DNA from: a virus
Taxonomy: Duplodnaviria > Caudoviricetes
Direction: 5' to 3' (one strand)
Length of the DNA stretch: 59,977 nucleotides
IMG/VR virus record: IMGVR_UViG_3300027848_000024
Location: 1 to 59,977 of that record
Made by a program: the position numbers and the translations under genes. Shown here one piece after another: positions 818-38,278 of the stretch (the first letter of the stretch is position 1; each line of letters begins with the position of its first letter). The notes beneath the pieces are model-generated. The model was not told the DNA's origin and did not search any database. It saw nothing but the letters and a program-made list of their open reading frames with translations.

Positions 818-835
818 AACAAGAAAGGGCACACA

Positions 836-1153: not shown

Positions 1154-1156
1154 TTT

Positions 1157-1218
1157 GGGAGGGGTACAATGGTGCCCCTCCCTTTATTACCTTTCTTTGG
1201 TACACTGCTACGGAGGGG
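1157..1218 (+). promoter_or_regulatory. terminator-like hairpin plus leader element copy 2 (imperfect)
   Basis: GGGAGGGG..CCCCTCCC, then TA TTACC tttcttt GGTAC ACTGC tac GGAGGGG. Confidence 0.55.
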
Positions 1219-1330
1219 ACAACAACCATACAAGCCGACGAGTGGCCCCTTGGTTGACTATGGTGGCGCTGGTCACTGTATGGTTAACTGAGGCTAGCCT
1301 GTCGGCTTTAAATGGTCCTTACGCTAGGGG

Positions 1331-1780
1331 TTGGTTATGGCTATACTTGATGCTGAGACTACCGACGTGGACTTTTACGTCACCTTTGCCGGTAAATTGT
1401 TCTTGTACAGCTTGGACGTAGAAATTGCTACGCAAGAACTTACACAGCATTGGTCCAGCACTACTTACCTTAAAAAGTTTCTTAGCACTTACGGGGTGTT
1501 CACAAATAAGAATGTAACTACCGTACACATATTGGAAAACAAGGTAATTCCCTGTGTTTGTTTGGGCAGCGTTACCGTATCGCCTAAGACCATGGATAAG
1601 GACGCGGTGTTGTCCTTTAACCTGTACCTTGGTAAGAAAGAGTTCTTTAATGATAGGTTTTACATTCTTACCATGGACGCCGGGGATGAACTGCCTACCT
1701 ACTGGAACGTACTCTCCCCCGGTGGTTATGAGCACTTTCGTACTTGGTTGTTTTCTATGCTAGAACAGAACATTACTTAG
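1331..1780 (+). CDS. hypothetical protein (5' end possibly frameshifted)
   Basis: 149 aa ORF; the strong RBS lies ~110 nt upstream with no in-frame ATG. Confidence 0.6.
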   Translation: MVMAILDAETTDVDFYVTFAGKLFLYSLDVEIATQELTQHWSSTTYLKKFLSTYGVFTNKNVTTVHILENKVIPCVCLGSVTVSPKTMDKDAVLSFNLYLGKKEFFNDRFYILTMDAGDELPTYWNVLSPGGYEHFRTWLFSMLEQNIT

Positions 1781-1811
1781 TCACTTTGTGACACTGCACT
1801 AACTGGAGGAG
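1778..1811 (+). promoter_or_regulatory. leader element copy 3
   Basis: TA GTCAC ttt GTGAC ACTGC actaact GGAGGAG; 29 bp identical to the copy at ~4817. Confidence 0.75.
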
Positions 1812-1816
1812 TACCA

Positions 1817-2224
1817 ATGCCAACGAAAAAGAAAGCCGTGGATTTGGCTAATCTTTCGGATGGGGACCTCGTTGATGGCTTCCATGCAATGAAAGCGCGG
1901 GTTAAAGCGTTGACGTCGCAGGCGGAAGCCATGAAAGTCGAGATCACTAGGCGAATGAAGAAACCACCGACGGCGACAAGAGCACGGATGCTGAAGGGTA
2001 GCGCAATTAGTGCTACTTGGATGCAGGAACCGTGGAGATGGGTCGACCAGAAAAACCTGCGGGCCGATGCCGAGAAGAAAATTACCTTAAGGAAGTACCT
2101 TTTGGAAGGCACCCGTAACGTTATGATAACGGCCCCTTCTGGTGAGAACGCAAAAGACGTTCGCCAGAAACAATCAGAAATGCACAGCCCCAAGAAAGCG
2201 GCAAAGAAAAGACCGCGGTTGTAG
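1817..2224 (+). CDS. basic hypothetical protein ending KKRPRL
   Basis: RBS, 135 aa. Confidence 0.8.
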   Translation: MPTKKKAVDLANLSDGDLVDGFHAMKARVKALTSQAEAMKVEITRRMKKPPTATRARMLKGSAISATWMQEPWRWVDQKNLRADAEKKITLRKYLLEGTRNVMITAPSGENAKDVRQKQSEMHSPKKAAKKRPRL

Positions 2225-2228
2225 TACT

Positions 2229-2423
2229 ATGAAAACAATGTTTAAGTACGGATCGCGGTTCGTTGGGGGAATGGTTTTCTTTTGGTTCTTCGCCTTTGTG
2301 ATGCTGCCTGTCTTTGGCTCTTGTGCCTTTGACATGGAGCCGCCGCAAAGTTCGTTCCCAAACGAGGATCCTACCCCAAGAGCCGGTTCCGACGGACTTA
2401 TTGGTGGTTCTTACGCACCATGA
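2229..2423 (+). CDS. small membrane protein
   Basis: hydrophobic stretch MVFFWFFAFVMLPVFG. Confidence 0.6.
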   Translation: MKTMFKYGSRFVGGMVFFWFFAFVMLPVFGSCAFDMEPPQSSFPNEDPTPRAGSDGLIGGSYAP

Positions 2424-2426
2424 AGA

Positions 2427-2513
2427 TAGCAGGGGGCTCCGGCCCCCTGCTACTCTCTTTTGTTGGCTGGTATTATTTAGTCCATATTGGACAAAAACTG
2501 CAAACTGGAGGAG
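2427..2513 (+). promoter_or_regulatory. terminator-like hairpin plus leader element copy 4
   Basis: TAGCAGGGGG..CCCCCTGCTA, then TA GTCCA tat TGGAC aaaa ACTGC aaact GGAGGAG. Confidence 0.7.
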
Positions 2514-2522
2514 TACTTAAAA

Positions 2523-3548
2523 ATGCATCCGAAAAGCACTGTTATTGCGCTGACGGCACTCATTGCAAACCGGGAGCCTGCCTTGCTGGTTGGCCCCCCG
2601 GGAGTGGGAAAGACTTCGTTGATCAAAATGGCGGCAGATGCTGCAGACTACGACCTGATCATCACCCACCCCGTTGTGTCGCAGCCGATCGACTTCCGCG
2701 GTATGCCGTCCACGATTAAGGACGGCGACGAATACCGCGCAGAGTTCCTGCCCATTGGGGCCTTGAGGGACATGTTGGCCGCTACTGAGCCGACCGTGTT
2801 CTTCCTGGATGATCTCGGGCAGGCGGCTCCGTCCACGCAGGCTGCATGTATGCAGCTTCTGTTGGAGCGGCGCTTGGACGAGTATGTGGTCCCTGACTGC
2901 GTTACGTTCATGGCCGCTACCAATGGCCGCAAGGACAAGGCGGGCGTTGGCGGGCTGCTTGAGCCTGTTAAGTCCCGTTTCACCACCATCTTCACGCTTG
3001 AGGTTAGCGTGCAGGAGTGGTGCGATTGGGCGATCGACGCGGGCTACGACGACATGGCGGCGTTCATCAAGTTTCGCCCCGCCCTGTTGTTTGACTTCCA
3101 GCCCACGGCCGATGTGGAAGTCAACTCCCCGGTGCCCCGCACCGTGGAAGCTGCGGCGCGTATCGCGCGGATGGATCTTCCTACCCACATCCGCAATGAG
3201 ATGATTCGTGGCGCGGCTGGTGACGGCTTTGCCGTGGAGTTCTGCCACTTCTTGGATATGGTGGCTAAGCTGCCTGATCCCAGGAAGGTGCTGGCAGACC
3301 CCATGAAGGTGCAGCTGGACGCCGACAATGTGTCCTACACCTATGCTCTGGTTACGGCGGTTTCTCGCGTCGTGGACAAGAACACGATCAGCAATTTCGT
3401 TAAGCTGATCGACCGGGACGAGATTGGCGTGGACTTTGGTACCATGGCCATGCGGATGATTGGCAGGCGGAACAACAAGCTCGTCGCCACTCGTGCGTTC
3501 TTGGATTGGGTGAATGAAAACAACGTGCGCCTGGATTGGGCGTCGTAA
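2523..3548 (+). CDS. MoxR-like AAA+ ATPase
   Basis: Walker A GPPGVGKT, Walker B FFLDD, AATN, SRF; RBS places start at 2523. Confidence 0.9.
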   Translation: MHPKSTVIALTALIANREPALLVGPPGVGKTSLIKMAADAADYDLIITHPVVSQPIDFRGMPSTIKDGDEYRAEFLPIGALRDMLAATEPTVFFLDDLGQAAPSTQAACMQLLLERRLDEYVVPDCVTFMAATNGRKDKAGVGGLLEPVKSRFTTIFTLEVSVQEWCDWAIDAGYDDMAAFIKFRPALLFDFQPTADVEVNSPVPRTVEAAARIARMDLPTHIRNEMIRGAAGDGFAVEFCHFLDMVAKLPDPRKVLADPMKVQLDADNVSYTYALVTAVSRVVDKNTISNFVKLIDRDEIGVDFGTMAMRMIGRRNNKLVATRAFLDWVNENNVRLDWAS

Positions 3549-3557
3549 CTGCCATTG

Positions 3558-3625
3558 GCGGGGGGCCTTCGGGCCTCCCGCTACTTAGGTCATAATAATG
3601 TGACCACTGCGAACTATTGGAGGAG
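3558..3625 (+). promoter_or_regulatory. terminator-like UUCG hairpin plus leader element copy 5
   Basis: GCGGGGGGCC-TTCG-GGCCTCCCGC, then TA GGTCA taataatg TGACC ACTGC gaactatt GGAGGAG. Confidence 0.7.
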
Positions 3626-3631
3626 TACGTT

Positions 3632-4771
3632 ATGAATACCACTTCCCTCATTGAGGAAAATGCCGTCGTTGTGAAGCTTTTCATCGGCGGCTGGAAGGGC
3701 GAGAAGAATGACAAGGCGACGGCGTCCAAGGTTACCACGGACAGCCATGCCAAGCGTTCGGCTGGCCGGTTCATCAAGCGGCTGGTTGCTAACGAGCACC
3801 ATGCCACTTTCTACAAGATGGTGAGCCAGATTCGCACCTTCCACCTCGACGCCACGTTGCCGTGGCTCGACACGGGCTTGCGTCTTCTGCCCGTGGAGGC
3901 CATGGATAACTACAACAAGGAAATGGCCAGTATGCGCGTCAAAGCGATGAAGGCCGCAAAGCTGTTCGTGGCGGACTACACGGGCGTTCGTGAGAAGGCC
4001 CGGGAAGAGTTGGGACTTCTGTTCCGCGAGGAAGACTACCCCTCGTCGGAGCGGCTGGGTTCCCGTTTTGCGGTTGACGTGCGCTTTCTTCCCGTCCCCA
4101 ACCCTGCTACCGACTTCCGGTGCAAGGTGTCGGCGGAATCGCGCGATGCGTTGATCGCACAGGGAGAAGAAGCCATGCGCACGGTGGTGAAGAGTGTTGC
4201 CACCGACCTGTGGGAACGTGTCGTGGAAAACGCCGAGCTCCTCTTGGAGCGCGTCGAGGACCCCGACCGTTCTTTGCAGGAACGCCTTGTTGGTCGTGTG
4301 AAGGCCACCTTGGCGTCGATGGAGACCCTGAACGTTCTCAACGACACGGAACTCAACGACATGCTGAAGCAGTTCAAGGACGTGCTGAAGCCTGACATTG
4401 AGTCCATCCGCGGCGATACTGTGGTGCGCGGCGCTACCTTGAAGGGCTTGAAAGAGCTTTCCAAGACGGCGCGTTCCAAGGCCGGTATGCCTTCCCGTGA
4501 GAACGAGAAGAAGAAGGCCAACGTCGCCAAGGCCGACAAGAAGGCGGCGGCTGTGGAAAAGGTGGCGGCGCAGAAGGGTGCTGCTCCCAAGAAGAAGCCT
4601 GTGGTCAAGCTGGTCAAGCAGCCCCGTAAGAAGGGCAACCAGTCGCCTGTGTCGACCACGGGCGGTTCGGGTAGCAGTGTGGCGGACGAAACCGCCCCTG
4701 TCGACAGCTATGTGCCCGCCTCGGACGTTTCCGAGGCGGACATTGACCGTGGTGAGCAGGCTGCGTCGTAA
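3632..4771 (+). CDS. DUF3150-like protein with Lys-rich tail
   Basis: TLPW..G.RLLP, LF..EDYPS, F.PVP motifs; typical neighbour of AAA/vWA. Confidence 0.7.
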   Translation: MNTTSLIEENAVVVKLFIGGWKGEKNDKATASKVTTDSHAKRSAGRFIKRLVANEHHATFYKMVSQIRTFHLDATLPWLDTGLRLLPVEAMDNYNKEMASMRVKAMKAAKLFVADYTGVREKAREELGLLFREEDYPSSERLGSRFAVDVRFLPVPNPATDFRCKVSAESRDALIAQGEEAMRTVVKSVATDLWERVVENAELLLERVEDPDRSLQERLVGRVKATLASMETLNVLNDTELNDMLKQFKDVLKPDIESIRGDTVVRGATLKGLKELSKTARSKAGMPSRENEKKKANVAKADKKAAAVEKVAAQKGAAPKKKPVVKLVKQPRKKGNQSPVSTTGGSGSSVADETAPVDSYVPASDVSEADIDRGEQAAS

Positions 4772-4788
4772 GTAGCTGGGTTTCCAGC

Positions 4789-4853
4789 GGGGTAGGGGCG
4801 AAAGCCCCTACCCTTTCTTAGTCACTTTGTGACACTGCACTAACTTGGAGGAG
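4789..4853 (+). promoter_or_regulatory. terminator-like GAAA hairpin plus leader element copy 6
   Basis: GGGTAGGGGC-GAAA-GCCCCTACCC, then TA GTCAC ttt GTGAC ACTGC...GGAGGAG. Confidence 0.75.
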
Positions 4854-4862
4854 ATTAAACAA

Positions 4863-6209
4863 ATGCACGAAGTAAATAAAGCCCGAGAGCAGGCCACGCT
4901 CGATGACCTGCGAAAGTGCCGTAGCTTCATGCTGCTTGCCCATCCTTTCTTTGGGCAGTTGGCCATGAATCTGCGGCTGAAGGTTGCCGAGGGAATTCAC
5001 CAGTGGATTATCCCCACGGCGGCTACGGACGGGGTGTACATCGTTGTTAACCCCGACTTTTGGGACAGCCTTTCCAAGCAGGAAAAGGTTTTCCTCGTGG
5101 CGCACCAGACCTTCCACTGTGCACTCGACCACATTGCCCGAACTGGAGAACGCGAGCCGGACAAGTGGAACGTCGCTTGTGACTACGTTATCAACCTTAT
5201 CTTGTCGAAACAGCGTTCGATGACCATGCCCCAAGGTGGCTTGCTGGATAGCAAGTACGAGGGCATGAACGCGGACACTGTCTACAAGATGTTGCCTGAC
5301 CCCCCGCCACCTGAACAGGGTAGCGGTGCAGAAGGGGACGACGAAGGTTCCGCCGACGAGGACGGACAAGGCCAAGGTGGACCCGGACAGCCCGGGAAAG
5401 GCAAGGGCAAGCCGTCCAACAAAGGTGGCTATGGAAAAGCCCTCGGGGACAACAAGGACATCCTTCCTGCGGGGTCGGTTGGCAAGCCAAGTGATACCAC
5501 CAACAACCACAGGGACGACGACGCGGGCCTTACTCCACAACAGTTGGGGGAAGTACTGCGGGACAAGTGGAAGGGCGCTCTTGCGGGCGCTTACCACGCG
5601 GCAAAGTCGGCTGGCGATGTACCTGCGGGCGTGGAAGAACTCATTAACGACTTCCTCCACCCGCGCATCGACTGGAAGGATATCCTTCGCCGGTTCTTTA
5701 CCGAGCAGGCAATGGATGACTACAATTGGATGTCCCCCGACAGGTACATGTTGAACCACGGCTTCTACTTGCCCACCCTCGACTCCGAGGGCAAGATGGG
5801 TGAAATGGCTGTGTTCGTTGATACCAGTGGCAGCATTGGGCCGGAAGAGCTCAAGGTGTTTGGTGGTATCATCAGCAACATCCTGGAAGAGGTGCGGCCT
5901 AGCACCTGCCATGTCTTCTACGGAGACACACAGTTGCAGAGGCACGATACCTTTGATGCGGACGAGTTGCCCATCACGCTCCACAAGGTTGGTGGCGGTG
6001 GAACGGCGTTCTCCAGTATTTTTCACAGCGTCGCGGAAATGCGGTTGGACATCCACTGTGCCATCTTCCTTACCGACCTGTATGTCCACGACTTCGGGCC
6101 GGAACCCAAGTACCCCGTCCTTTGGGCCAGCACTACGGACCAGGACAAGGTGCCTTGGGGGCAGGTGATGAAGGTTGACATGGATGACTTGCGGTCGCAA
6201 GGTTTTTAG
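4863..6209 (+). CDS. DUF2201-type metallopeptidase-like plus vWA domain protein
   Basis: PFFG, TAATDG, H(Q)TFH..LDH, WNVACDYVIN; MIDAS DTSGS, GGGGT, TD. Confidence 0.9.
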   Translation: MHEVNKAREQATLDDLRKCRSFMLLAHPFFGQLAMNLRLKVAEGIHQWIIPTAATDGVYIVVNPDFWDSLSKQEKVFLVAHQTFHCALDHIARTGEREPDKWNVACDYVINLILSKQRSMTMPQGGLLDSKYEGMNADTVYKMLPDPPPPEQGSGAEGDDEGSADEDGQGQGGPGQPGKGKGKPSNKGGYGKALGDNKDILPAGSVGKPSDTTNNHRDDDAGLTPQQLGEVLRDKWKGALAGAYHAAKSAGDVPAGVEELINDFLHPRIDWKDILRRFFTEQAMDDYNWMSPDRYMLNHGFYLPTLDSEGKMGEMAVFVDTSGSIGPEELKVFGGIISNILEEVRPSTCHVFYGDTQLQRHDTFDADELPITLHKVGGGGTAFSSIFHSVAEMRLDIHCAIFLTDLYVHDFGPEPKYPVLWASTTDQDKVPWGQVMKVDMDDLRSQGF

Positions 6210-6283
6210 GCGACCCGCGCTTAGGGGGAGGGGTTAGCGCCCCTCCCTTCTTTTAGTAATAAAAACTACTATTGGAGGAGATA

Positions 6284-6592
6284 ATGCCTAGTAAGCAGCC
6301 CGCGTCCTACACCACCATGTTTGCGCGACACAACCAAAAGCCATCCTACGAGTACACTTGGAGTGTATCCAAAGACTCTCTTAATCAAGGGAAGCTGTCC
6401 ATTACCGAGCAGTACCTTAGTAGAAGTCTTTTCTATGGCAAAGCAGCACCAGCGTCTCTATCCATCCCCTTGGATAAAGAAAGCTGTGCATCTTTGATGC
6501 AGGACCTTCAAAACCTGTATGGCATGCTCCCCGATACGCATATGACCACACCTTCCAATAAACCCCCGTTGCCCTCCGCAAGGAACGAGTAA
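6284..6592 (+). CDS. hypothetical protein
   Basis: GGAGGAG RBS after terminator hairpin. Confidence 0.7.
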   Translation: MPSKQPASYTTMFARHNQKPSYEYTWSVSKDSLNQGKLSITEQYLSRSLFYGKAAPASLSIPLDKESCASLMQDLQNLYGMLPDTHMTTPSNKPPLPSARNE

Positions 6593-8006: not shown

Positions 8007-8139
8007 GCTGATGGATGTCCAGCATGGATGTCCGGGGGTACATTTTACGGGGGGGCCACAACGAACGTGGCCCCCCCGTCTCCCCTTGCTAACATTGTTT
8101 AGGTGCATTAACGCATCACGTAACTCACTGGAGGGGTAT

Positions 8140-8430
8140 ATGGAGAAAAGAGAAGTACATGAGGTAACCACGTACTACGATTGCCTTGGGAACGAATTCA
8201 AAGCCCAAACTATCGCAGACGTGGCCACCAACCACTTCCACGGCTTGGCGTTACAAACCAAGCTGGATGTACTGCAAGCGCAACGTGGCCACCTGTGGGA
8301 CTTGCCTGACGGTACCAACGCGCAAGCGGCTACACGAGAGCACCGCTTGTCTATCTTGCTTGGCACCGTTAACGAGGTTACTGGTTCCCCAAACAGGGAA
8401 ACTGTGCAGGCCTTTATGGTCCGCCACTAG
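8140..8430 (+). CDS. hypothetical protein
   Basis: GGAGGGG RBS preceded by a leader-element variant at 8100. Confidence 0.65.
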   Translation: MEKREVHEVTTYYDCLGNEFKAQTIADVATNHFHGLALQTKLDVLQAQRGHLWDLPDGTNAQAATREHRLSILLGTVNEVTGSPNRETVQAFMVRH

Positions 8431-8439
8431 GAGAACTGT

Positions 8440-8478
8440 ACCCGAGGGGTCTTAACCGGCCCCTCGGGTTTTTCTTTT
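8440..8478 (+). terminator. intrinsic terminator
   Basis: ACCCGAGGGG..CCCCTCGGGT-TTTT. Confidence 0.75.
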
Positions 8479-8500
8479 AAACTGCACAGGAGATAATCAA

Positions 8501-8918: not shown

Positions 8919-9614
8919 ATGTACCAGATCAAACACATTCTCACTGAGGCGGTCCTGTTCGAGGCCGATACCGATGACCTGCGCCGATGCGTGATGCTTG
9001 CAGTCGAAAGCGGCGCCGATCTGCGCTTTGCCTACCTGAGCGATGCCTACCTGCGCGCCGCCGACATGCGCTGTGCCAACCTTTCGCGCGCCAACCTTTC
9101 GCGCGCCAACCTGATCTGTGCCGACCTGAGTGGGGCCAACCTGATCTGTGCCGACCTGATCGGCGCCTACCTGAGCGATGCCTACCTGCGCGCCGCCAAC
9201 CTGATCTGTGCCAACCTGATCTGTGCCGACCTGAGTGGTGCCAACCTGATCTGTGCCGACCTGAATGGTGCCCACCTGAGCGATGCCAACCTTTCGCGCG
9301 CCGACCTGCTCTACGTCGACCTGAGTGGTGCCGACCTGAGTGGTGCCAACCTGATCGGCGCCAACCTGAATGGTGCCAACCTGCACAGTAATTCCATCAT
9401 CGACGCCGGGAAGGACGCTCGCGGCTATCGATTCGTTGCCGTGCAGCACGACACCGGGCCGATGATCGCCGCTGGCTGTCGCTGGTTCACCCTCGACGAA
9501 GCCAAGGTGCATTGGGATGCCGCTCATGCCGACGATCCCATCCTTCGTTCTGAGTGTATCGCCAAGGTCTCACTGATCGAGGCCATCGCCAAAGCGCGCG
9601 GATGGATTGCCTGA
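8919..9614 (+). CDS. pentapeptide repeat protein
   Basis: A(D/N)Lxx repeats with 15-nt periodicity; C-term IAAGCRWFTLDEA..HW. Confidence 0.95.
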   Translation: MYQIKHILTEAVLFEADTDDLRRCVMLAVESGADLRFAYLSDAYLRAADMRCANLSRANLSRANLICADLSGANLICADLIGAYLSDAYLRAANLICANLICADLSGANLICADLNGAHLSDANLSRADLLYVDLSGADLSGANLIGANLNGANLHSNSIIDAGKDARGYRFVAVQHDTGPMIAAGCRWFTLDEAKVHWDAAHADDPILRSECIAKVSLIEAIAKARGWIA

Positions 9615-9781
9615 TCACACACCGGGCATGGCCCGAGAAGGAGAAGCAGATTATGAACCTATTGAAAGCGTGTCGCGACCTGTGATGAACGCGCTGCGTC
9701 GCGTCGAGAATATTGAACTTGCGATCGACGGTCGCGACAACATGTTTGCCCCTGTACGGACCGTTCTGAAAGAGGCGCCCG

Positions 9782-9943
9782 ATGAATGACAAAACCAAAG
9801 AAGTTGAAGTCTTGGTGGACAAGGCAGCGAAATCCAGCGATTCCGCGGACGCCCTGCGTTTCTCGCAAGCGGCGTGCAATGTGGCGATCGCCATGTGCGC
9901 CGCCCGAATTGCGCGGAGCGAGACGGAGAACCCTACACCCTAA
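9782..9943 (+). CDS. small hypothetical protein (not in ORF track)
   Basis: MNDKTKEVEVLVDKAAKSSDSADALRFSQAACN...; followed by hairpin GCGGAACC..GGTTCCGC. Confidence 0.6.
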   Translation: MNDKTKEVEVLVDKAAKSSDSADALRFSQAACNVAIAMCAARIARSETENPTP

Positions 9944-10105
9944 CACCCAGCAAGGCGGAACCTTTCGGGGTTCCGCTCTCTGGATGTCACACTCCGGTCA
10001 CAGTCAAGTTAAACCATAACAGAAAACCATTTAGCGAGAAGGCATGGTCTTTTTGCCGTTATCGTATAATAATGGGCAACTAGGCACTTACAGGGAGCAT
10101 ACGCT

Positions 10106-12836: not shown

Positions 12837-13382
12837 ATGACCACAATGTTTTATAAAGATGAACGCACCATGTTGTTCGTGGACGGCGCTAATGTGTCTG
12901 CCTCGGCTAAGGCACTTAGGTGCAGCATGGACTGGAAGAAGGTGCTAACCTACTTCCAAGGCAACTGCCGACTGGTGTCTGCTTACTACTACACCGCCGT
13001 GTTGGATACCGGCGACGAGCACAATGCGCTGGTACCACTACTGGACTGGCTATCTTTCAATGGGTACACCTTGGTTACCCGAGAAGCCAAGCGGTACACC
13101 AATGACGGGGTTGACCGTATCAAAGGCAACATGGACGTAGACATGGCGGTCGGCGTGCTGGAAAGCTGCGCCCATTGCGACCATGTGGTGCTTATGACGG
13201 GCGACGGGGACTTCGTGCCAGTGGTACAAGCTGCACAACGGCGAGGCGTGCGGGTCACCGTTGTAAGTACCGTGGCGACCAACCCTCCCATGGCAAGCGA
13301 CGACCTTCGGCGGGTCGCAAACAACTTCATTGAATTATCCGAAACACGTTTGTTTTTAATGAATGCTTGGGAAGGAGAATAA
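12837..13382 (+). CDS. NYN domain (LabA/DUF88) ribonuclease-like protein
   Basis: FVDGAN, KGNMDVDMAV, TGDGDFVP. Confidence 0.9.
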   Translation: MTTMFYKDERTMLFVDGANVSASAKALRCSMDWKKVLTYFQGNCRLVSAYYYTAVLDTGDEHNALVPLLDWLSFNGYTLVTREAKRYTNDGVDRIKGNMDVDMAVGVLESCAHCDHVVLMTGDGDFVPVVQAAQRRGVRVTVVSTVATNPPMASDDLRRVANNFIELSETRLFLMNAWEGE

Positions 13383-15165: not shown

Positions 15166-15522
15166 ATGTTTGATTTAAAGAGGCCATGCACAAATTGCCC
15201 GTTTAGAAAGGGCAAGGGAGAAGTCTTTTGGTTTGCGCAAGAGCGCCTGGAGGAAATCTTTACTGCCACCGCTTTCCAATGCCACAAGACTGTGTATTAC
15301 GGTAGCGGCGAAGACGGGGAAGAAACACACAGTGCCGGTGATCGTCCGCAGCAATGTGCTGGTGTCATGACCGTCCTTCGTAACGAGAATAAATTAAATG
15401 ACATTATGCAAGTAGGTTCCCGGCTGGGTGCGTTAGACCTGGACGCATTGGACCCAAAGAAAGAAGCTTACCAATCGTTTGAAGAAGTTTTTGTTGCACA
15501 CAAATGCTCCCGCAAGAAGTAA
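15166..15522 (+). CDS. Cys/His Zn-binding phage protein (DUF6283-like)
   Basis: PCTNCPFRK, FQCHKT, QQCAG. Confidence 0.7.
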   Translation: MFDLKRPCTNCPFRKGKGEVFWFAQERLEEIFTATAFQCHKTVYYGSGEDGEETHSAGDRPQQCAGVMTVLRNENKLNDIMQVGSRLGALDLDALDPKKEAYQSFEEVFVAHKCSRKK

Positions 15523-15554
15523 CCTGTTAACCAAGCTAGGATGTGCTTAATGTG

Positions 15555-16603
15555 TCCTTGCACAAAAAACGCCCGCCAGTGCGGTCGGCGACAAAACCGG
15601 GCCGCTGGTACTGCCCCGGTCGCCGACACGACCCCTACGGGCCTTAAAATGCAAGCAAACACACCTTTGCGGGGGGTATAACAACCCTATGACAAATAAT
15701 TGCGGGCGAAGGATTGCACCGGCCCTGTTGCGGGCTTACCTTTGCCCCATGGCGGTTATGGCTAGTGGCCGCCCTGCGCAAGCAGACAAGGAAGTACTGC
15801 CCACGGTTACACTTGGTTCCCGCTTGGGAGCAGATCGTGCAGGATAATGAAAGTGTGGGGCACTTATGCCCATGAGTGTTTCTACTTTGGTTTGTGTGAT
15901 GCACAACCTCCCGCCGGATTCATCACTACTCCCCCGATGACACCGGCACCCAAGGTAGATGTTGTTGGCCCAAACGCACCGAGGCGCGTTAGTGGTACTG
16001 GTCTTAACTATGCGACTTCACGGCGCATCGTGCTCCTCCAAGAGAGACCAGTAGCCCCGCCCGCGGTAGCTAAGACAAGCCAGCAATTCTCCACACTTTC
16101 ATTATCCTGCCCGGTCATCCTCCTAAAACCAGTAGCTAAAACAAATCCACGCTCTGTCGTGCCCCTGACAACGTGGTGCCTACTTAGCCTAAACATCTAC
16201 ATGGTGTTGCTCTTGTTTCTGGCCTATAGAGTTTCTAGCAAGAGCAACACTGGTCACGGATGTAAAACGATGTGGCCTTATTGATGCCAGACAGCCGGGT
16301 GAAACAGATAGCCCGCTGCCACCTACGGGTGGAGGAACCGAGTATGGTGCCCCAAGAAGTGCTTGGGTTGGCTTAAGAGTGGAAAAAGAAGCTCTATTAC
16401 AGGTTTTATCCTGTTAGATGCCTACTTCTCGTAGAAGTGCCAGCATCTATTCCACTTGCCACTACGTGATAAGCTGCGCTAGCGAAGAGAAGCGTAAGCC
16501 CGCCATGTAGGCCAGAAAGGGCATAGCTATATCTACTCTCATATTATAAGATAAATAATGGCTGGTAATAGCCATTTAGAACATACCACGTTAGGGGTAT
16601 GTT
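15555..16603 (+). ncRNA. candidate large structured non-coding RNA (~1 kb)
   Basis: Nested long-range helices (15730-39/16494-503; 15811-20/16334-43; 15839-58/16091-110), many local hairpins, G-U pairs and cUACGg loops on the + strand. Confidence 0.7.
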
Positions 16604-16638
16604 AAGTTACTGTTTAGACTAACAATAAGAGGGGCATA

Positions 16639-16845
16639 GTGGTTATCATGGCAACTACAACAGAGCGGGTAAAATTCCGTTTGTTGCAGACTCCATGCTG
16701 CAACACACAACTTTGTTGGGTTAATCCTAGATTGCCTAATCATTGCCCAGAATGTGGTACCCATATCTACCCCGAAATAAAGAGCTGTGTTACCCACGAA
16801 GACAAGGACGCTTATCTAAAACTGAAAGTGGCCGTTGGGCGATGA
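16639..16845 (+). CDS. small Zn-ribbon protein
   Basis: PCC..LCWVNPRLPNHCPECG. Confidence 0.7.
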   Translation: MVIMATTTERVKFRLLQTPCCNTQLCWVNPRLPNHCPECGTHIYPEIKSCVTHEDKDAYLKLKVAVGR

Positions 16846-17018
16846 AACATTGGCTTTGCATTACCTGCAAACATGCGTGGGACAGTTACAATGAGGAACA
16901 CTGTGCTTGGTGCGCTTCCAATAGAAGACCACGTCTGCTTGAAGATAAGCAGGTTATGCTGGAAGAAGATCAACAACGAATGCTAAGGGCATTGCAGGGG
17001 GGCAACCATGGACACTAA
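16842..17018 (+). CDS. small Zn-ribbon protein
   Basis: ATGA overlap; CITC...CAWC. Confidence 0.6.
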   Translation: MKHWLCITCKHAWDSYNEEHCAWCASNRRPRLLEDKQVMLEEDQQRMLRALQGGNHGH

Positions 17019-17799
17019 ACATCACAACAAACTGCCAGACGATTTTCCCAAGGTGTTGTACGCGGCCTGCTCTTATAAACACCTTATGAATATTTTGGAT
17101 AACAAATTGTTAATTGGCCATCGGTTGCCAGAACGAGTAGAAGGCGTGGGAGAACAAAACAGTCCTTTGCTTCTTATAAGCAAGTACCCTCTGTACTATG
17201 CAAAGAAGTTTATGAGGGCGGGCACATCCTCTTGTCTTGTAGCCATTAGTGCCAAAACGTTGCGGGGTTCTTTTTTCTCTTTTGATCCAACTTCCATGGA
17301 AAAAGCTACACGGGGTTTTGATGGTGTAGAAGACTCGGACAGCCGTAATTTTACTTTGGGGGGCCATCGCCTACAATTCTACAAAGACCAAACAAAACAT
17401 AATCGTGGTTGGGAGCCCGCCCAACTAACTTTGGGCAATTCTGGTTTGTGCCAGTATCACGGTGCCATAGCGCTTTCTTCTTTAAAGCACGTCTACATAG
17501 TTAACTGGTCGGTGGGCGCTTCTCCCATGTTGGTTACTTCTTTATCTACTTTGGCCATGCGCTGCAAGCCAAGCGACCCTCCCGCCGTAGGCACAGGTGA
17601 AACCCCGGAAGAGTACCACCGGGCGTTAAGCGCCGCTTTCCTACATGGCAGGTTTACACGTCTTTCTGAGATGCTTAACGTCCAAGACAATTTGAGCGCT
17701 ATGCCGTGGCTTAAGCAGCTTAGTGCGGACGCTGTCAGTTCCTGCTCCGTACCAGAGTTAATTCGGACAGTGAATAAGACGCGCATAGGCCATCCGTGA
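17008..17799 (+). CDS. hypothetical protein (weak ADP-ribosyltransferase-like N-terminus)
   Basis: LYAACS...L.NILDNKL resembles LYHGT...IL..GL. Confidence 0.6.
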   Translation: MDTKHHNKLPDDFPKVLYAACSYKHLMNILDNKLLIGHRLPERVEGVGEQNSPLLLISKYPLYYAKKFMRAGTSSCLVAISAKTLRGSFFSFDPTSMEKATRGFDGVEDSDSRNFTLGGHRLQFYKDQTKHNRGWEPAQLTLGNSGLCQYHGAIALSSLKHVYIVNWSVGASPMLVTSLSTLAMRCKPSDPPAVGTGETPEEYHRALSAAFLHGRFTRLSEMLNVQDNLSAMPWLKQLSADAVSSCSVPELIRTVNKTRIGHP

Positions 17800-20430: not shown

Positions 20431-21270
20431 ATGACGAAATACAATCCGGTAAACGTGGACACCAGTTATGGTAAGGGGGCTTTTCAAAAGAAGTTCTTTG
20501 AGGAAGGTAAACTTCTGGTTCGCACGCACTTTGATACCTTACAGGGAGAAGGACCTTTTGCGGGCAGGCCCGCTTTCTTCATTCGCTTTGGTGGTTGCAA
20601 CTTTGGGGGCAAGGGCACAAAGGCTGGCCCCGGCTGCACTTTTTGTGACACAGACTTCTCCATAAACAAATCGCTGTTATACGCGCCGCTTGATCTGTTA
20701 GAGATTGTGCAAAGCGGTACCAAAAGCAAGCTGGTTATCCTTACCGGAGGGGAGCCCCTCCTGCAACCCGACATTCCCATGGAAAATCTATTTAGGGCAT
20801 TGAAGGCGGAAGGGTACGAGATCCAACTGGAAACCAACGGCACCTATATGCCGGAGTGGTTGGTGCGCATGTCCGGGAGCAGAGTGACTATTGTGGTTTC
20901 GCCTAAAGCTGCTGAGAAGTTGAAGAAGTACGATTCTGCAAAGAAACCGGTTCCCAAAATTGCAGATAGGATGAAAACCTTCGGAGACGTGTTTAAGTTC
21001 CTTATTAGTGCAGACCCGGAAAGCCCGTACTACGATATCCCGGCTTGGGGGAAAGACTTGGCATACAAAATAAACCCCATGGAGCGTGTGTGGCTGTCTC
21101 CCATTGCCGTGTACCATAGCGCGCCCACTAGCGAGGTGGTTAGCGGCTGGTCGGGGGAACACATTGACCGTGAGGCCACGGCGCGCAACTACGCACGCAC
21201 CGCAGAGCTTTGTATGGAGTATGGTGCCCGACTTACCATTCAGCAGCACTTGTTCACGGCCATCCCATAA
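20431..21270 (+). CDS. queE: 7-carboxy-7-deazaguanine synthase (radical SAM)
   Basis: FDTLQGEG, FIRFGGCN...CTFCDTDF, TGGEPLLQ, ETNGT, VSPK, Q.H. Confidence 0.92.
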   Translation: MTKYNPVNVDTSYGKGAFQKKFFEEGKLLVRTHFDTLQGEGPFAGRPAFFIRFGGCNFGGKGTKAGPGCTFCDTDFSINKSLLYAPLDLLEIVQSGTKSKLVILTGGEPLLQPDIPMENLFRALKAEGYEIQLETNGTYMPEWLVRMSGSRVTIVVSPKAAEKLKKYDSAKKPVPKIADRMKTFGDVFKFLISADPESPYYDIPAWGKDLAYKINPMERVWLSPIAVYHSAPTSEVVSGWSGEHIDREATARNYARTAELCMEYGARLTIQQHLFTAIP

Positions 21271-22700
21271 TGGCAAAACGTCTTGGGAAGGCATCGCAGG
21301 AAAACCTCCTAGCGTTGCTGGCAACTAGTGAAAAGCAAGCGGGCATCATACGCAATACCATTAAGCCTGAACTTTTCATTGGGCACTACGCCGACATGAT
21401 GGAAACTCTGTGTGATTACTATGACACCTACGGGAAGCCCCCCGGCTTTGTCCATTTGGCGGACTTGTTTGAGAACGAGCTTAACCATAGCGACGAAGAC
21501 ATTGCAGAGCAGTACCGTGACACCATTCTCAATGTTGAGCAGTCCCATAAGGACATCAACGAAGAGTACGTGATGTCCAGCTTGCAGAACTTTATTAGGA
21601 CGCAAGTAACCATGCAGGCCGTGCTTGAATCCGCGGAACTGCTAGCCAGCATGGGAAGCGACGCCATTGATGACGTGGATGAGATTCTAGCCAAGGCTCA
21701 GAAAACAAAGCTGGATCTGTTTGAACCGGGTATTCGCCTTATAGATACCACACGTAGTTTGTCTTTCTTGGACAAGCTGGACGAAGAACTAGAATTCCCA
21801 ACAGGCATACCTGAATTTGACAAGTACCAAGTGTGCCCCGCTAGACAAACCCTATTCGTCTTTGTGGCTCTGCCCAAGAGGGGGAAGACACAGTTTGCGG
21901 TAAACCTTGGAAGGCAGTCTTTGCTTAATCGCAAGAAGGTCTTGCACATTAGTTTAGAAATGAGTGCGGAAGCTATTGCACAGCGTTATGTGCAGAACTT
22001 GTTTGCTGTTGCCAAGCGCAAAGAAGACATCTCCATTACGAGACTAGAAGTTAAGAAAGGCAAGCTGGTCGACATGTTGCCGGTGGACCGCACCCCGCAG
22101 CACACGTTTGAAGATGACAACATTAAGTCCAAGCTGCTTAAGAAGATAGACCAAGTTGGCTACCGCATTAAGAACATTATTGTTAAAGGCTTCCCTAGTG
22201 GCAAGTTGACCATTAAGGGGCTTAACGCTTACTTGGATAACCTGGAACAGAGGGAAGGCTTTATCCCCGACCTAATTATCCTTGACTACGCTGACATTAT
22301 GGAAGTGCCTTCCGATAACAAGCGAGACGCGCTTGGCAAGTTGTACGTCGACCTACGCGGCTTGGGGCAAGAGCGTAATGCCGCCGTGGTTACCTTTAGT
22401 CAGGGCAACCGGCAGGGCGTCGGCCGCAAGGAAATGACTGAGAGCAATATCGCGGAAGACTTTAGCAAGATGGCTACCGCGGACATTGTGGTTATTTACA
22501 ACCAGACAAAGATGGAAAAGATGCTTGGGCTTGCTAGGGTGACGGTACAGCTTGCCCGTGGGGACCAGGACTCCTTTACCGTTCTGGTTAGCCAGAACTA
22601 TACGCAAAGCCAATTTGTGGTGGATAGCGTGCGCCTTAGCAGCAATTACTTTGACATGTTGAAAGAACTATCGGATGAACCGGACGACGAGGAGGACTAA
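21270..22700 (+). CDS. dnaB: DnaB-like replicative helicase
   Basis: PTGI..FD, PKRGKT, SLEM, ILDYAD, SQGNR, IAEDFSK. Confidence 0.88.
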   Translation: MAKRLGKASQENLLALLATSEKQAGIIRNTIKPELFIGHYADMMETLCDYYDTYGKPPGFVHLADLFENELNHSDEDIAEQYRDTILNVEQSHKDINEEYVMSSLQNFIRTQVTMQAVLESAELLASMGSDAIDDVDEILAKAQKTKLDLFEPGIRLIDTTRSLSFLDKLDEELEFPTGIPEFDKYQVCPARQTLFVFVALPKRGKTQFAVNLGRQSLLNRKKVLHISLEMSAEAIAQRYVQNLFAVAKRKEDISITRLEVKKGKLVDMLPVDRTPQHTFEDDNIKSKLLKKIDQVGYRIKNIIVKGFPSGKLTIKGLNAYLDNLEQREGFIPDLIILDYADIMEVPSDNKRDALGKLYVDLRGLGQERNAAVVTFSQGNRQGVGRKEMTESNIAEDFSKMATADIVVIYNQTKMEKMLGLARVTVQLARGDQDSFTVLVSQNYTQSQFVVDSVRLSSNYFDMLKELSDEPDDEED

Positions 22701-28463: not shown

Positions 28464-29582
28464 ATGACTGTTGAAATTGGCAAGGTTGGCAAGGAAGCTC
28501 TCAAGGCTACTGGCCAAAAGGTGCAGGGCCAGAAGGAAAAGGACCAGCCTTTCCTTGAGCGAGTTTGTCGCGCCTTTGAGGGGGTTGAGGACGACGACTA
28601 CGAAGACCTGCCCGAAGAGGTGCAGAGCTGGCACGCCGCCGCTGTTGAAGCGGTTAAGGAGGAGGAAGCTATCCCCGCGTTCGAGCCTGTCGCTACCAAG
28701 GGTAAGGGCAAGAAGAAGCCCGAACCTGAGGAAGACGAAGACGAGGAAGACGCGGACGAAGACGCGGACGAAGACGACGAAGACGAGGAAGACGCGGACG
28801 AAGACGCGGACGAAGACGAGGAAGACGAAGAGGAAGACGAGGCCCCGGCACCAAAGAAAAAGGGTAAGGGTAAGAAGACGCCCGAGCCTGAGGAAGACGA
28901 GGAAGACGAAGACGAGGAAGACGCGGACGAAGACGCGGACGAAGACGCGGACGAAGACGAGGAAGACGCGGACGAAGACGAGGAAGACGCGGACGAAGAC
29001 GAGGAAGACGAAGAGGAAGACGAGGCCCCGGCACCAAAGAAAAAGGGTAAGAACAAGAAGAAGACCGAGCCTGAGGAAGACGCGGACGAAGACGCGGACG
29101 AAGACGAGGAAGACGCGGACGAAGACGAAGACGAGGACGAAGACGACAACCAGTCCGACGAGGACGAAGACGAGGAAGAGGATACCAATATGGCTACCAA
29201 GAAGGCTGCCCCCAAGAAGATTGCTCCCAAGAAGAGCCCTCGCAAGGCTAAGGTGGTTGCTGCTGAGGAGACTGTCGTCACTGAAGAGGTGACCGAGACC
29301 CCCAAGAAGAAGGGCAAGGGCAAGGCTGCTCCTGCGCCGAAGGCTGAGAAGGCTGAGAAGGCTGCGCCGGCTGAGAAGGCCCCCAAGAAGAAGCGCGGCC
29401 CGTCGACGGCCGACATTATGATTACGGCTATCGCCAAGAAGCCGGACATCACCAAGGAAAAGATGACCGAGATTCTGGAGAAGAAGGGTGCCGAGGTTAA
29501 GGCCAGCACCATTGCTATCCAGCTCGGGTGGATCAAGCGCATCATTAAGAAGCTGCGCGAAGAGGGCCTGATGGCCGAGTAA
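28464..29582 (+). CDS. acidic/basic low-complexity protein with possible C-terminal DNA-binding domain
   Basis: (EDAD)n tracts alternating with APAPKKKGK; histone H1-like KAEKA/PKKK; strong codon bias; own terminator. Confidence 0.85.
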   Translation: MTVEIGKVGKEALKATGQKVQGQKEKDQPFLERVCRAFEGVEDDDYEDLPEEVQSWHAAAVEAVKEEEAIPAFEPVATKGKGKKKPEPEEDEDEEDADEDADEDDEDEEDADEDADEDEEDEEEDEAPAPKKKGKGKKTPEPEEDEEDEDEEDADEDADEDADEDEEDADEDEEDADEDEEDEEEDEAPAPKKKGKNKKKTEPEEDADEDADEDEEDADEDEDEDEDDNQSDEDEDEEEDTNMATKKAAPKKIAPKKSPRKAKVVAAEETVVTEEVTETPKKKGKGKAAPAPKAEKAEKAAPAEKAPKKKRGPSTADIMITAIAKKPDITKEKMTEILEKKGAEVKASTIAIQLGWIKRIIKKLREEGLMAE

Positions 29583-38096: not shown

Positions 38097-38278
38097 TGGG
38101 CCTGTATATCGAAATAGCCTGGATTGTGTTAGCAGTGCTGGCACTTGTTCTGTTTAACCCGGCAACATTGGCACGCTGCTACTACGAAGAGAAGTTCAAA
38201 TACCTAGTGCGAATGACAAAGCTGCCACACTCCGGCGAGAGTGTGCAAAAGGGCGCTCGCCACGACAAATTCAATTAA
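38093..38278 (+). CDS. small membrane protein
   Basis: N-terminal TM segment. Confidence 0.5.
   Translation: MMGLYIEIAWIVLAVLALVLFNPATLARCYYEEKFKYLVRMTKLPHSGESVQKGARHDKFN

What the first reader, a model, noticed from the sequence alone, without database searches (positions are those of the whole stretch)
15555..16603. Candidate ~1 kb multi-domain structured ncRNA in an otherwise gene-dense phage
Seen: this is the only ~1.1 kb stretch without a convincing gene, and it is full of nested, mutually compatible helices. The closing stem GCGGGCTTAC 15730-39 / GTAAGCCCGC 16494-503 is 10 bp with ends ~760 nt apart. Inside it lies ACTTGGTTCC 15811-20 / GGAACCGAGT 16334-43 (one G-U). Inside that is a perfect 20-bp helix, GCAGGATAATGAAAGTGTGG 15839-58 / 16091-110, extendable with G-U pairs. 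Further helices: 15881-90/15950-59 (one G-U), 15996-16004/16045-53, 16204-15/16239-50 (12 bp), 15751-59/15765-73 (three G-U), and CCACC-UACG-GGUGG at 16319-32. An upstream domain pairs 15570-76/15702-08 and 15584-92/15619-27. G-U pairs and UNCG loops work only on the + strand, which points to RNA rather than a DNA cruciform. Known: large phage ncRNAs exist (GOLLD, ROOL). I see no RNase P, tmRNA or group II domain V signature. Inference: possibly a new large ncRNA class.
Basis: partly seen in the sequence, partly recalled or inferred. Interest (0 to 1): 0.9.

Follow-up and report, generated by a model that had tools for sequence, protein, structure and literature searches.

The report
Orphan structured non-coding RNA candidate, phage
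A gene-free stretch of about 1.1 kb in an uncultured freshwater phage folds far better than chance, mostly on the strand its neighbouring genes use, so it is probably a large structured RNA, but no relative was found and so its structure could not be tested by evolution.

Summary
All 10 helices are at the stated coordinates. The gene-free interval 15523-16638 folds far better than shuffles: 15700-16520 gives z -11.7 on the + strand and -4.8 on the - strand, against +0.5 to -1.8 in 13 control windows. The excess structure stops at the flanking genes.

The strongest part is a 303-nt core, 15824-16126, closed by a 7+5+22 bp stem. Its interior is structured only on the + strand (z -5.0 versus -1.1). 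ORF 15847-16284 looks non-coding. Rfam gives nothing at E<=10.

No homologue was found in any collection searched. Covariation is therefore untestable, and no RNA run was available.

Distant relatives of the phage carry their own unrelated, strongly structured gene-free stretches.

Verdict: a credible orphan large structured RNA. That it founds a new class, and what it does, are unproven. A DNA-level inverted repeat (an invertible segment) and a purely cis-acting processing region remain rivals.

The parts
15523..16638 (+). Gene-free interval between the DUF6283-like gene (15166-15522) and a 68-aa zinc-ribbon-like ORF (16639-16845). This is the whole candidate element.
   Evidence: ORF list. 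The excess folding energy is confined to this interval. No long frame opens under TAG, TGA or TAA read-through.
15546..15663 (.). 5' domain of nested helices: 15551-55/15659-63, 15557-62/15650-55, 15571-75/15638-42 and 15584-91/15620-27. The strand is ambiguous.
   Evidence: Pair probabilities 0.90-1.00. Segment 15540-15700 has z -2.6 on + and -4.5 on -. A - strand terminator-like hairpin with a T run lies at 15591-15565.
15704..15785 (+). Three local hairpins: 15704-12/15739-47, 15751-59/15765-73 (3 G-U pairs), and 15774-77/15782-85 with a GCAA loop.
   Evidence: Pair probabilities 0.90-1.00. As a block, 15700-15823 is not better than shuffles (z -0.85, 23 of 100 shuffles as good).
15811..15820 (+). 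5' arm of the long-range helix that pairs with 16334-16343. It would enclose the core and part of the 3' half.
   Evidence: 10 bp with one G-U. Mean pair probability 0.59. It is in the MFE of the 821-nt fold and in the centroid of the 1081-nt fold, but not in that fold's MFE.
15824..16126 (+). Core domain. An interrupted 34-bp closing stem (7+5+22 bp, 3 G-U pairs) encloses hairpin 15861-78, arm 15881-15959 and arm 15961-16087.
   Evidence: z -11.1 on + against -4.7 on - (100 shuffles each). Interior 15861-16088: z -5.0 (0 of 100 shuffles as good) on + against -1.07 (11 of 100) on -. Helix probabilities 0.80-1.00. It holds the longest inverted repeat in the 60-kb window (I1 of 15 pairs).
15839..15860 (+). 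5' arm of the 22-bp helix (20 bp are perfect Watson-Crick). The 3' arm is 16089-16110. It is long enough to be an RNase III substrate, which is an inference.
   Evidence: probability 0.999.
15847..16284 (+). 145-aa ORF, judged not to be a gene.
   Evidence: No Pfam or PHROG match. Codon-usage log-odds -0.078, against +0.10 to +0.33 for most neighbouring + strand genes; two ORFs kept as genes here also score negative (16639-16845 -0.042, 16743-17018 -0.098) and 17008-17799 scores +0.069. In 5.8 billion clusters the only match is one cluster whose two members are identical copies differing only in the called start residue. Its start codons lie inside the 22-bp helix.
16193..16263 (+). Long hairpin (6+15 bp) with a 19-nt loop.
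   Evidence: Probabilities 0.79 and 0.98. The 12-bp perfect core was verified.
16216..16226 (+). Loop segment perfectly complementary (11 nt) to 16508-16518. This is a candidate pseudoknot or tertiary pairing.
   Evidence: Repeat pair I10. Helices of 11 nt or more: 3 observed against 0.15 expected. A nested fold cannot form it (probability 0). Inference only.
16292..16332 (+). Hairpin 16292-16318 and the cUACGg tetraloop hairpin 16319-16332.
   Evidence: Probabilities 0.87-0.99.
16351..16510 (+). 3' domain: hairpin 16351-67, branched domain 16369-16461 and hairpin 16462-16510.
   Evidence: Probabilities 0.90-0.98. Segment 16346-16515: z -3.97 on + against -2.55 on -.
16557..16604 (.). Two terminal hairpins: 16557-76 with a GUAA loop, and 16585-16604. 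No clear U tract follows either.
   Evidence: The segment has z of about -2 on both strands.

Best explanation
The interval 15523-16638, and above all 15824-16515, is a non-coding, multi-domain structured RNA read from the + strand. It is probably part of the same rightward transcript as its neighbours, because no convincing promoter or terminator bounds it.

The 303-nt core (15824-16126) folds into a branched domain closed by a 34-bp, nearly perfect stem. The most likely mechanism is as follows. A double-strand-specific RNase, RNase III of the host, cuts this stem, in the way rRNA precursors and T7 early transcripts are processed. That releases a compact, stable RNA of about 230-300 nt and separates the upstream message from the downstream one. 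The released RNA, possibly together with the 3' domains, then acts in trans as a scaffold or decoy during infection, as is suspected for other large phage RNAs.

Shown: absence of coding signal, excess structure, its boundaries, and the strand preference. Inferred: transcription, processing, and any trans function.
For: Structure:
- z -11.7 on + against -4.8 on - for 15700-16520.
- Excess energy -64 kcal/mol on + against -32 on -, although the - strand shuffles are the more stable ones.
- Core interior z -5.0 on + against -1.07 on -. Segment 16127-16345: -2.4 against -0.35. Segment 16346-16515: -4.0 against -2.6.
- Background z +0.5 to -1.8 in 13 windows.
- The structure ends at the gene borders.
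- Low positional entropy in the core (0.09-0.39 bits).
- No A-C 1x1 mismatch in the + fold, 3 in the - fold.
- The stem is extended by 3 G-U pairs, which are not complementary as DNA.

Non-coding.

Neighbouring genes read as real are all on +.

Not a mobile repeat: there is no second copy in the record, and an 18-mer of the arm has 0 hits in IMG/VR.

No recombinase or reverse transcriptase that could serve a DNA-level or retron reading was found in the 60-kb record.

Context: a NYN-domain predicted RNase and two tRNA genes lie 2-5 kb upstream. Distant relatives hold comparable gene-free structured stretches.
Against: - No transcript evidence of any kind.
- No homologue, hence no covariation.
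- A 20-bp stem without a single G-U or bulge is more typical of a DNA-level inverted repeat, or of a very young structure, than of an old RNA.
- With DNA parameters both strands score the same.
- Strong predicted structure also occurs in coding parts of this genome (z -6.5 in the ATPase gene), so z alone does not prove an ncRNA.
- The 5' 300 nt are not + specific.
- No sigma-70-like promoter excess and no clear terminator.
- The global fold is uncertain outside the local domains (peripheral pair probabilities 0.26-0.59).
Confidence: 0.45

Rival explanations
1. It is a purely cis-acting part of the early transcript. The long structured intercistronic region would serve as a processing site, a barrier to RNases or an insulator that sets the stability and translation of the flanking messages. 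There would be no trans-acting RNA product.
For: No own promoter or terminator was recognised. It sits between two runs of small + strand genes. This genome uses strong GC-rich hairpins and terminators in other intergenic regions, at 1153-1331 and 8040-8480. In relative L083 a 1.48-kb ORF-free structured stretch lies directly before a run of about 20 small genes.
Against: About 700-1100 nt, including a 303-nt branched domain, is much more than known processing sites need (recalled knowledge). The core interior is itself significantly and strand-specifically structured. That is not needed for a cleavage stem.
Confidence: 0.2
2. It is a DNA-level element. The 20-26 bp inverted repeat flanking 232 bp would be the pair of crossover sites of an invertible segment (a phase-variable switch), or part of a replication origin or recombination site upstream of the replication genes.
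For: The repeat is perfect over 20 bp and is the longest in the window. With DNA parameters both strands fold equally well (z -10.5 and -10.6). The replication module (DnaB, helicase, primase, DNA polymerase) starts 4.6 kb downstream. The record is only 61% complete, so a recombinase could lie outside it.
Against: No serine or tyrosine recombinase was found in the 60 kb. The contigs of 3 runs all show one orientation and no joint, but contigs hide minor forms. No promoter-like site lies inside the segment. There are no iterons. The interior and the 3' domains prefer the + strand as RNA. The repeat continues outward through G-U pairs. A 232-nt spacer cannot extrude as a cruciform in duplex DNA (general knowledge).
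Confidence: 0.12
3. It has no function. It would be a decaying remnant, for example of palindromic or mobile DNA or of a dead gene, whose predicted structure is a by-product. Alternatively, ORF 15847-16284 is a real orphan protein gene inside a structured message.
For: It is a singleton with no relatives in any collection searched. Its neighbour 17008-17799 is also an orphan, so lack of homologues is normal in this region. A Shine-Dalgarno-like AGGA lies 8 nt before the GTG at 15853. Coding regions of this phage can also be strongly structured.
Against: z -11 with sharp borders at the flanking genes and a strand-specific excess are not expected of decay. The codon-usage score of the ORF is negative, and its start lies in a 22-bp helix. 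There is no second copy or related repeat elsewhere.
Confidence: 0.15
4. It is a very divergent member of a known ribozyme or intron class (group I or group II intron) or a retron-type non-coding RNA.
For: Its size and its many helices fit. The inverted repeats flanking the core recall the a1/a2 repeats of retron RNAs (recalled knowledge).
Against: No Rfam match, even at E<=10 on either strand. The flanking ORFs end and start normally and are not halves of one gene. No reverse transcriptase was found in the record.
Confidence: 0.04

Closest known systems
GOLLD and ROOL RNAs (large ornate RNAs of phages and prophages)
   Same: It is a phage-encoded, non-coding, highly structured RNA candidate of 0.6-1 kb that lies a few kb from phage tRNA genes. 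GOLLD members exceed 800 nt. Both classes are encoded in phages, often near tRNA islands, and their function is unknown (passages read in bioRxiv 10.1101/2024.12.08.627333).
   Different: There is no match to any Rfam model at E<=10. The paper took its GOLLD, ROOL and OLE profiles from Rfam. Those classes are defined by covariation across many members, whereas this is a single sequence. Their homo-oligomeric cages are unknown here. Palindromic loop sequences that could make kissing contacts exist (for example GCUAGC at 16478-83), but they are expected by chance.
RNase III processing stems of rRNA operons and of phage T7 early transcripts (recalled knowledge, no call)
   Same: A long, nearly perfect duplex formed by sequences that flank a structured RNA and lie inside a longer transcript.
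   Different: Cleavage is untested here. The host and its RNase III are unknown. The enclosed RNA matches no known RNA.
Invertible DNA segments (phase-variable 'invertons') (recalled knowledge, no call)
   Same: Perfect inverted repeats of about 20-26 bp flank a few hundred bp.
   Different: No invertase was found. No second orientation was seen in contigs. The repeat continues as G-U-containing pairing, and the interior shows RNA-type, strand-specific structure.
Gene-free structured stretches in distant relatives of this phage (L116 1243-2106, L095 8987-9991, L083 3828-5308, L064 1482-2940)
   Same: They lie in the same genome neighbourhood, upstream of a DnaB helicase that is 36-42% identical. 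They are 0.9-1.5 kb without long ORFs, have very large excess folding energy, and have no Rfam family. L083 prefers the + strand and lies about 4.6 kb before DnaB, as here.
   Different: There is no sequence similarity to the window or to each other. There is no covariance-model match. L116 and L095 score alike on both strands. Whether they are homologous, analogous or unrelated is open.

Membership tests
GOLLD / ROOL / OLE / other Rfam large RNAs | Match to the family's covariance model (sequence plus consensus structure). | tested here: not met
   cmscan against 4227 Rfam 15 families. At gathering scores only 2 tRNAs were found in the whole window. There were 0 matches at E<=10 in 15300-16900 on both strands.
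Group I / group II intron | Conserved catalytic core recognised by the Rfam intron models, and insertion inside a host gene whose two halves flank it. | tested here: not met
   No Rfam match. The upstream gene covers its family profile and ends with a stop. The downstream ORF starts anew.
Retron non-coding RNA | Adjacent reverse transcriptase gene. | tested here: not met
   PF00078 search of the 59,977-bp record found 0 matches at E<=0.1. The record is 61% complete.
Invertible DNA segment | Inverted repeats flanking a short segment. | tested here: met
   The arms 15833-58/16091-116 are 26 nt and 92% complementary (20 nt perfect), with 232 nt between them.
Invertible DNA segment | A site-specific recombinase (invertase) in the element or genome. 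| tested here: not met
   PF00239 and PF00589 gave 0 matches in the record. The record is incomplete and the host is unknown.
Invertible DNA segment | Both orientations present in a population. | not testable with these tools
   Only assembled contigs of 3 runs were available. They show one orientation and no joints, but contigs drop minor variants.
Structured non-coding RNA (general) | Compensatory base changes in homologues. | not testable with these tools
   No homologue was found. The 3 runs hold the identical sequence.
Structured non-coding RNA (general) | Folding energy beyond shuffled controls, on the transcribed strand. | tested here: met
   z -11.7 on + against -4.8 on -. Core interior -5.0 against -1.07. 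Genome background +0.5 to -1.8.
Structured non-coding RNA (general) | Expression as RNA. | not testable with these tools
   No RNA run is listed for this sequence.

The most novel reading that the evidence does not exclude
This would be the first recognised example of an undescribed kind of large (0.7-1.5 kb), fast-evolving structured RNA that recurs in the early region, upstream of the replication genes, of a family-level group of uncultured phages with about 60-100 kb contigs. The group is linked by DnaB helicases 36-45% identical to the window's. Each lineage would carry its own sequence but the same design: a branched core closed by a long, nearly perfect stem. The RNA would be excised from the early transcript and act in trans during infection.
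Probability: 0.2. Interest if true: 0.85.

Novelty: new variant of a known kind. Interest (0 to 1): 0.55.

Why it matters
Only a handful of bacterial and phage RNAs larger than about 500 nt and without a known function have been described. Those studied (GOLLD, ROOL, OLE) turned out to build unprecedented RNA-only assemblies (passages read).

A further large phage RNA that matches none of them would be a new object for RNA structural biology and for phage-host biology. The hint that distant relatives carry their own structured gene-free inserts at a similar place suggests a wider phenomenon. Homology-based RNA discovery would miss such a phenomenon, because the sequences do not align.

As it stands, the case rests on one sequence and on thermodynamic prediction. 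Its value is as a well-defined target for RNA-seq, structure probing and a collection-wide covariance search.

Tried and rejected
Homologue searches, all negative:
- blastn (word 11) of 15540-16620 against 50,697 GenBank phage records and 72,556 plasmids.
- The 145-aa pseudo-ORF used as a translated probe in IMG/VR (12 pattern hits, 0 confirmed), in JGI metagenomes (169 hits, 0 confirmed) and in GTDB genomes (99 hits, 0 confirmed).
- The same ORF against 5.8 billion protein clusters. The one cluster matched holds two identical copies of the ORF.
- An 18-mer of the 20-bp arm: 0 hits in IMG/VR. It had 14 hits in 596 Gb of genomes, against about 17 expected by my own estimate. All sit in unrelated contexts except two homologous records, so they are chance.
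- A 19-mer of the 16203 hairpin: 1 IMG/VR hit (L137) that is not collinear, so chance.
- A paired-motif pattern: 1 hit (L056). It is a tandem repeat inside a 285-aa ORF, so a false hit.

Synteny routes:
- The DUF6283-like neighbour gave 13 viral and 39 metagenome loci at 33-77% identity. Only that gene is shared and none holds the RNA.
- The 263-aa neighbour has no relative at all.
- DnaB as a single protein gave none.
- A DnaB alignment gave 80 loci. blastn gave only one chance 17-nt match (E 0.30), and nhmmer and the covariance model R1 of the core found no homologue.
- One unfiltered model search over 4 loci failed internally and was repeated on L083 only. L095, L116 and L064 were therefore searched with default filters only.

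Other attempts:
- A 13-mer shared with L083 sits in a different structural context, so it is chance.
- Sequencing runs: no RNA holder is listed. Three freshwater DNA runs, which may be the source of this DNA, hold the identical sequence with no variant and no joint.
- Alternative genetic codes do not open the region.
- The nearest cultured phage DNA polymerase is only 32% identical, so no cultured model exists.
- The host was not determined.
Full report
WHAT THE WINDOW IS

The window is a linear IMG/VR virus record of 59,977 bp, estimated 61% complete. The same sequence stands at about 190x in contigs of three freshwater metagenome runs.

PHROG matches give these genes:
- DnaB-like helicase, 21210-22700
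- a second helicase
- primase
- family A DNA polymerase, 33907-36492
- SbcC-like protein
- large terminase, 44443-46029
- tail fibre genes on the - strand
- QueE-like radical SAM enzyme, 20431-21270

All genes up to about 47 kb lie on the + strand. The best cultured-phage match of the polymerase is 32% identical. The phage therefore has no close cultured relative.

CHECK OF THE OBSERVATION

The interval 15523-16638 lies between a DUF6283/phrog_5443-like gene (15166-15522) and a 68-aa zinc-ribbon-like ORF (16639-16845).

Folding as RNA:
- 15700-16520, + strand: -336.5 kcal/mol against -272.3 +/- 5.5 for dinucleotide shuffles, z -11.7.
- Reverse complement: z -4.8.
- My own shuffles of 500-nt windows put 13 windows between 7000 and 45500 at z +0.5 to -1.8. 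The windows starting at 15700 and 15800 are at -9.9 and -9.8.
- In 200-nt windows, all 12 windows starting at 15500-16600 are more stable than their shuffles. The 7 windows before and the 12 after scatter around zero. The excess structure therefore has the same borders as the gene-free gap.
- Perfect helices of at least 11 nt: 3 observed, 0.15 expected, 0 of 300 shuffles as many.

Seven of the ten helices have mean pair probability above 0.88, and 15811-20/16334-43 has 0.59. The "closing stem" 15730-39/16494-503 and the helix 15570-76/15702-08 have about 0.001. Their arms are taken by local hairpins with probability close to 1. One perfect 10-mer pair per region is also about what chance gives (0.6).

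Split into segments with 100 shuffles each, the signal sits in these parts:
- core 15824-16126: + z -11.1, - z -4.7
- core interior without the closing stem: + -5.0, - -1.07
- 16127-16345: + -2.4, - -0.35
- 16346-16515: + -4.0, - -2.6

Two 5' segments behave differently. Segment 15700-15823 is not significant. Segment 15540-15700 is more structured on the - strand (-4.5 against -2.6), where a terminator-like hairpin with a T run is also seen.

The well-supported element is therefore about 700 nt, 15824-16515, rather than 1049 nt.

ANATOMY

- The core is closed by a stem of 7+5+22 bp (3 G-U pairs, 20 bp perfect). It contains hairpin 15861-78, a branched arm 15881-15959 and a long arm 15961-16087.
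- An A-rich linker follows. It repeats a 13-nt motif of the core (GTAGCTAARACAA).
- Next come a 6+15 bp hairpin (16193-16263), small hairpins including a cUACGg tetraloop (16319-32), a branched domain (16369-16461) and a hairpin (16462-16510).
- The 19-nt loop of the 16193 hairpin is perfectly complementary over 11 nt to 16508-18. This is a candidate pseudoknot, by inference only.

RNA OR DNA?

With DNA parameters the two strands are equal (z -10.5 and -10.6), as they must be for Watson-Crick pairs. With RNA parameters the + strand gains twice as much over its shuffles as the - strand (-64 against -32 kcal/mol), although the - strand shuffles are the more stable ones. The interior of the core and the segment after it are significant on + only.

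The + fold has no A-C 1x1 mismatch and the - fold has three. The long stem is prolonged by G-U pairs. This is what selection on a + strand RNA predicts, and + is the strand of all neighbouring genes.

It is not proof.

CODING?

ORF 15847-16284 (145 aa):
- It has no Pfam or PHROG match.
- Its codon-usage log-odds is -0.078. Most neighbouring + strand genes score +0.10 to +0.33, but the two small zinc-ribbon ORFs downstream also score negative (-0.042 and -0.098) and 17008-17799 scores +0.069.
- In 5.8 billion protein clusters it meets only one cluster, whose two members (on 4 contigs in all) are the same sequence with a different start residue called.
- Its start codons lie inside the 22-bp helix.

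Reading TAG, TGA or TAA through opens no long frame. I take the region as non-coding.

KNOWN FAMILIES

Rfam 15 (4227 models) finds only the two tRNAs in the window at gathering scores. It finds nothing at E<=10 in 15300-16900 on either strand. GOLLD, ROOL, OLE, the intron models, RNase P, tmRNA and the like are therefore not met.

The record holds no reverse transcriptase, no serine recombinase and no tyrosine recombinase. The flanking genes are not halves of a split gene.

HOMOLOGUES

None was found. The searches, listed in full under Tried and rejected, covered:
- GenBank phages and plasmids by blastn;
- IMG/VR, JGI metagenomes and GTDB genomes by translated and exact patterns;
- 5.8 billion protein clusters;
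- 52 loci around relatives of the upstream gene;
- 80 loci around distant DnaB relatives, by blastn, nhmmer and a covariance model of the core.

The collection scans detect only close relatives, and records very near the window are withheld by the tools. The negative result therefore means "no moderately close relative", not "unique in nature".

The three runs hold the identical sequence, so there is no population variation to use. Covariation, the decisive test, could not be made. No RNA run holds the sequence (this blank is no evidence on expression).

A LEAD FROM DISTANT RELATIVES

The DnaB helicase has relatives at 36-45% identity, several on contigs of 60-100 kb. In 80 IMG/VR loci around such genes I folded the 103 stretches of at least 600 nt that lack an ORF of 110 aa or more. 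Several are extraordinarily structured:

| Locus and range | Excess over shuffles, + strand (kcal/mol) | z (+) | Excess, - strand |
|---|---|---|---|
| L116 1243-2106 | -110 | -16 | -103 |
| L095 8987-9991 | -90 | -8.5 | -85 |
| L083 3828-4600 | -72 | -7.9 | -46 |
| L083 4600-5400 | -52 | -7.7 | -25 |
| L064 1482-2400 | -51 | -7.8 | -39 |

- L095 is identical to L096 in the windows folded. Its stretch is closed by a 19-nt repeat 941 nt apart and lies directly before DnaB.
- L083 3828-5308 has no + strand ORF of 60 aa or more, favours the + strand, and lies 4.6 kb before DnaB, as in the window.
- None of these stretches matches Rfam, the window, or any of the others.
- None opens under stop-codon read-through.
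- L061 and L064 are 98.4% identical over 6.6 kb. Between them, the 1,015 nt 1513-2527 carry no substitution, while the roughly 450 nt around it carry 16. That fits constraint or a recent exchange.

This suggests, but does not show, that large structured non-coding inserts are a recurring feature of this phage group.

MOST LIKELY MECHANISM

A + strand, non-coding, multi-domain RNA is made as part of the rightward transcript. No promoter excess or clear terminator bounds it.

Its 34-bp stem is the kind of duplex that RNase III cuts, as in rRNA precursors and T7 early RNA (recalled knowledge). Cutting would free a compact core of about 230-300 nt. A trans role as scaffold or decoy is a guess by analogy with GOLLD and ROOL, whose own functions are unknown. 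A NYN-domain predicted RNase (12837-13382) and two tRNA genes lie upstream.

Confidence:
- main explanation (excised core with a trans role): 0.45
- purely cis-acting processing or stability region: 0.2
- together, some functional structured RNA: about 0.65
- DNA-level repeat (invertible segment or origin): 0.12
- junk or orphan protein gene: 0.15
- divergent intron or retron: 0.04

CAUTION

Predicted structure is also elevated in the left 8.5 kb of the window, including real genes (ATPase gene z -6.5). Strong terminator hairpins occur in other intergenic regions. A very negative z in this genome is therefore not by itself proof of an ncRNA. The case rests on the combination of no gene, sharp borders, strand specificity and a large branched domain.

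VERDICT

This is a credible orphan candidate for a large structured phage RNA and a member of no described family. Class status, expression and function are unproven. Interest 0.55.

PAPERS

- bioRxiv 10.1101/2024.12.08.627333: passages read.
- PMC5737381 and the other papers listed: seen only as a search listing.
- That no similar RNA is in print rests on that one literature search and on Rfam. It is therefore a weak claim.

Noticed in passing
L116 1243-2106; L095 (=L096) 8987-9991; L083 3828-5308; L064 1482-2940 (=L061 about 50-1500): Distant relatives of the phage (DnaB 36-42% identical) carry their own 0.9-1.5 kb stretches without long ORFs. Their excess folding energy is very large (-50 to -110 kcal/mol over shuffles). 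They have no Rfam family and no similarity to each other or to the window.
   Followed up: partly
L064 1513-2527 versus L061: The two records are 98.4% identical over 6.6 kb. They have no substitution in these 1,015 nt of the structured stretch, but 16 in the roughly 450 nt around it. This fits strong constraint or a recent exchange.
   Followed up: partly
L064 17368-17438: A tRNA with anticodon CTA (it would read TAG) lies in a distant relative. That phage may reassign the amber codon. No such tRNA is present in the window.
   Followed up: no
window 600-6500, + strand: Predicted RNA structure is elevated across real genes. For example 2601-3400, inside the phrog_1297 ATPase gene, has z -6.5, and 1000-1499 is 36 kcal/mol more stable than its shuffles. 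This region is also richer in G+C (0.54-0.59) than the rest. Unexplained.
   Followed up: partly
window 1153-1331: A 180-nt intergenic region holds an 11-bp GC-rich terminator hairpin followed by a U tract, plus a further long imperfect hairpin. 1080-1420 has z -5.6.
   Followed up: partly
window 1773-1804 and 4814-4845: A 32-nt repeat (31 of 32 identical) contains the palindrome GTCAC-TTT-GTGAC. Each copy lies directly before a gene start (1817 and 4845). It is likely an operator or promoter element. There is no third copy within 3 mismatches.
   Followed up: partly
window 8040-8080 and 8440-8478: A 13-bp G/C-rich perfect hairpin, and a 12-bp hairpin followed by a U run (intrinsic terminator). 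Both strands of 8000-8499 fold about 36 kcal/mol better than shuffles.
   Followed up: partly
window 12837-13382: A NYN-domain protein (PF01936, E 6e-32), a predicted RNase, lies directly after tRNA-Leu(TAA) and 2.2 kb before the structured region.
   Followed up: no
window 8985-9413: About 19 tandem copies of a 15-nt unit lie inside ORF 8919-9614, so it is a pentapeptide-type repeat protein. It matches several PHROGs of unknown function.
   Followed up: no
window 28605-29180 and 39015-39457: Two genes 10 kb apart (28464-29582 and 38241-39515) share repeated acidic (GAC/GAA/GAG-rich) and lysine-rich modules.
   Followed up: no
window 16639-16845 and 16844-17018: Two small adjacent ORFs, each with two CxxC pairs (zinc-ribbon-like), follow the structured region. 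Neither they nor the 263-aa ORF 17008-17799 have relatives: 0 in IMG/VR, and for the 263-aa ORF only itself in 5.8 billion clusters.
   Followed up: partly
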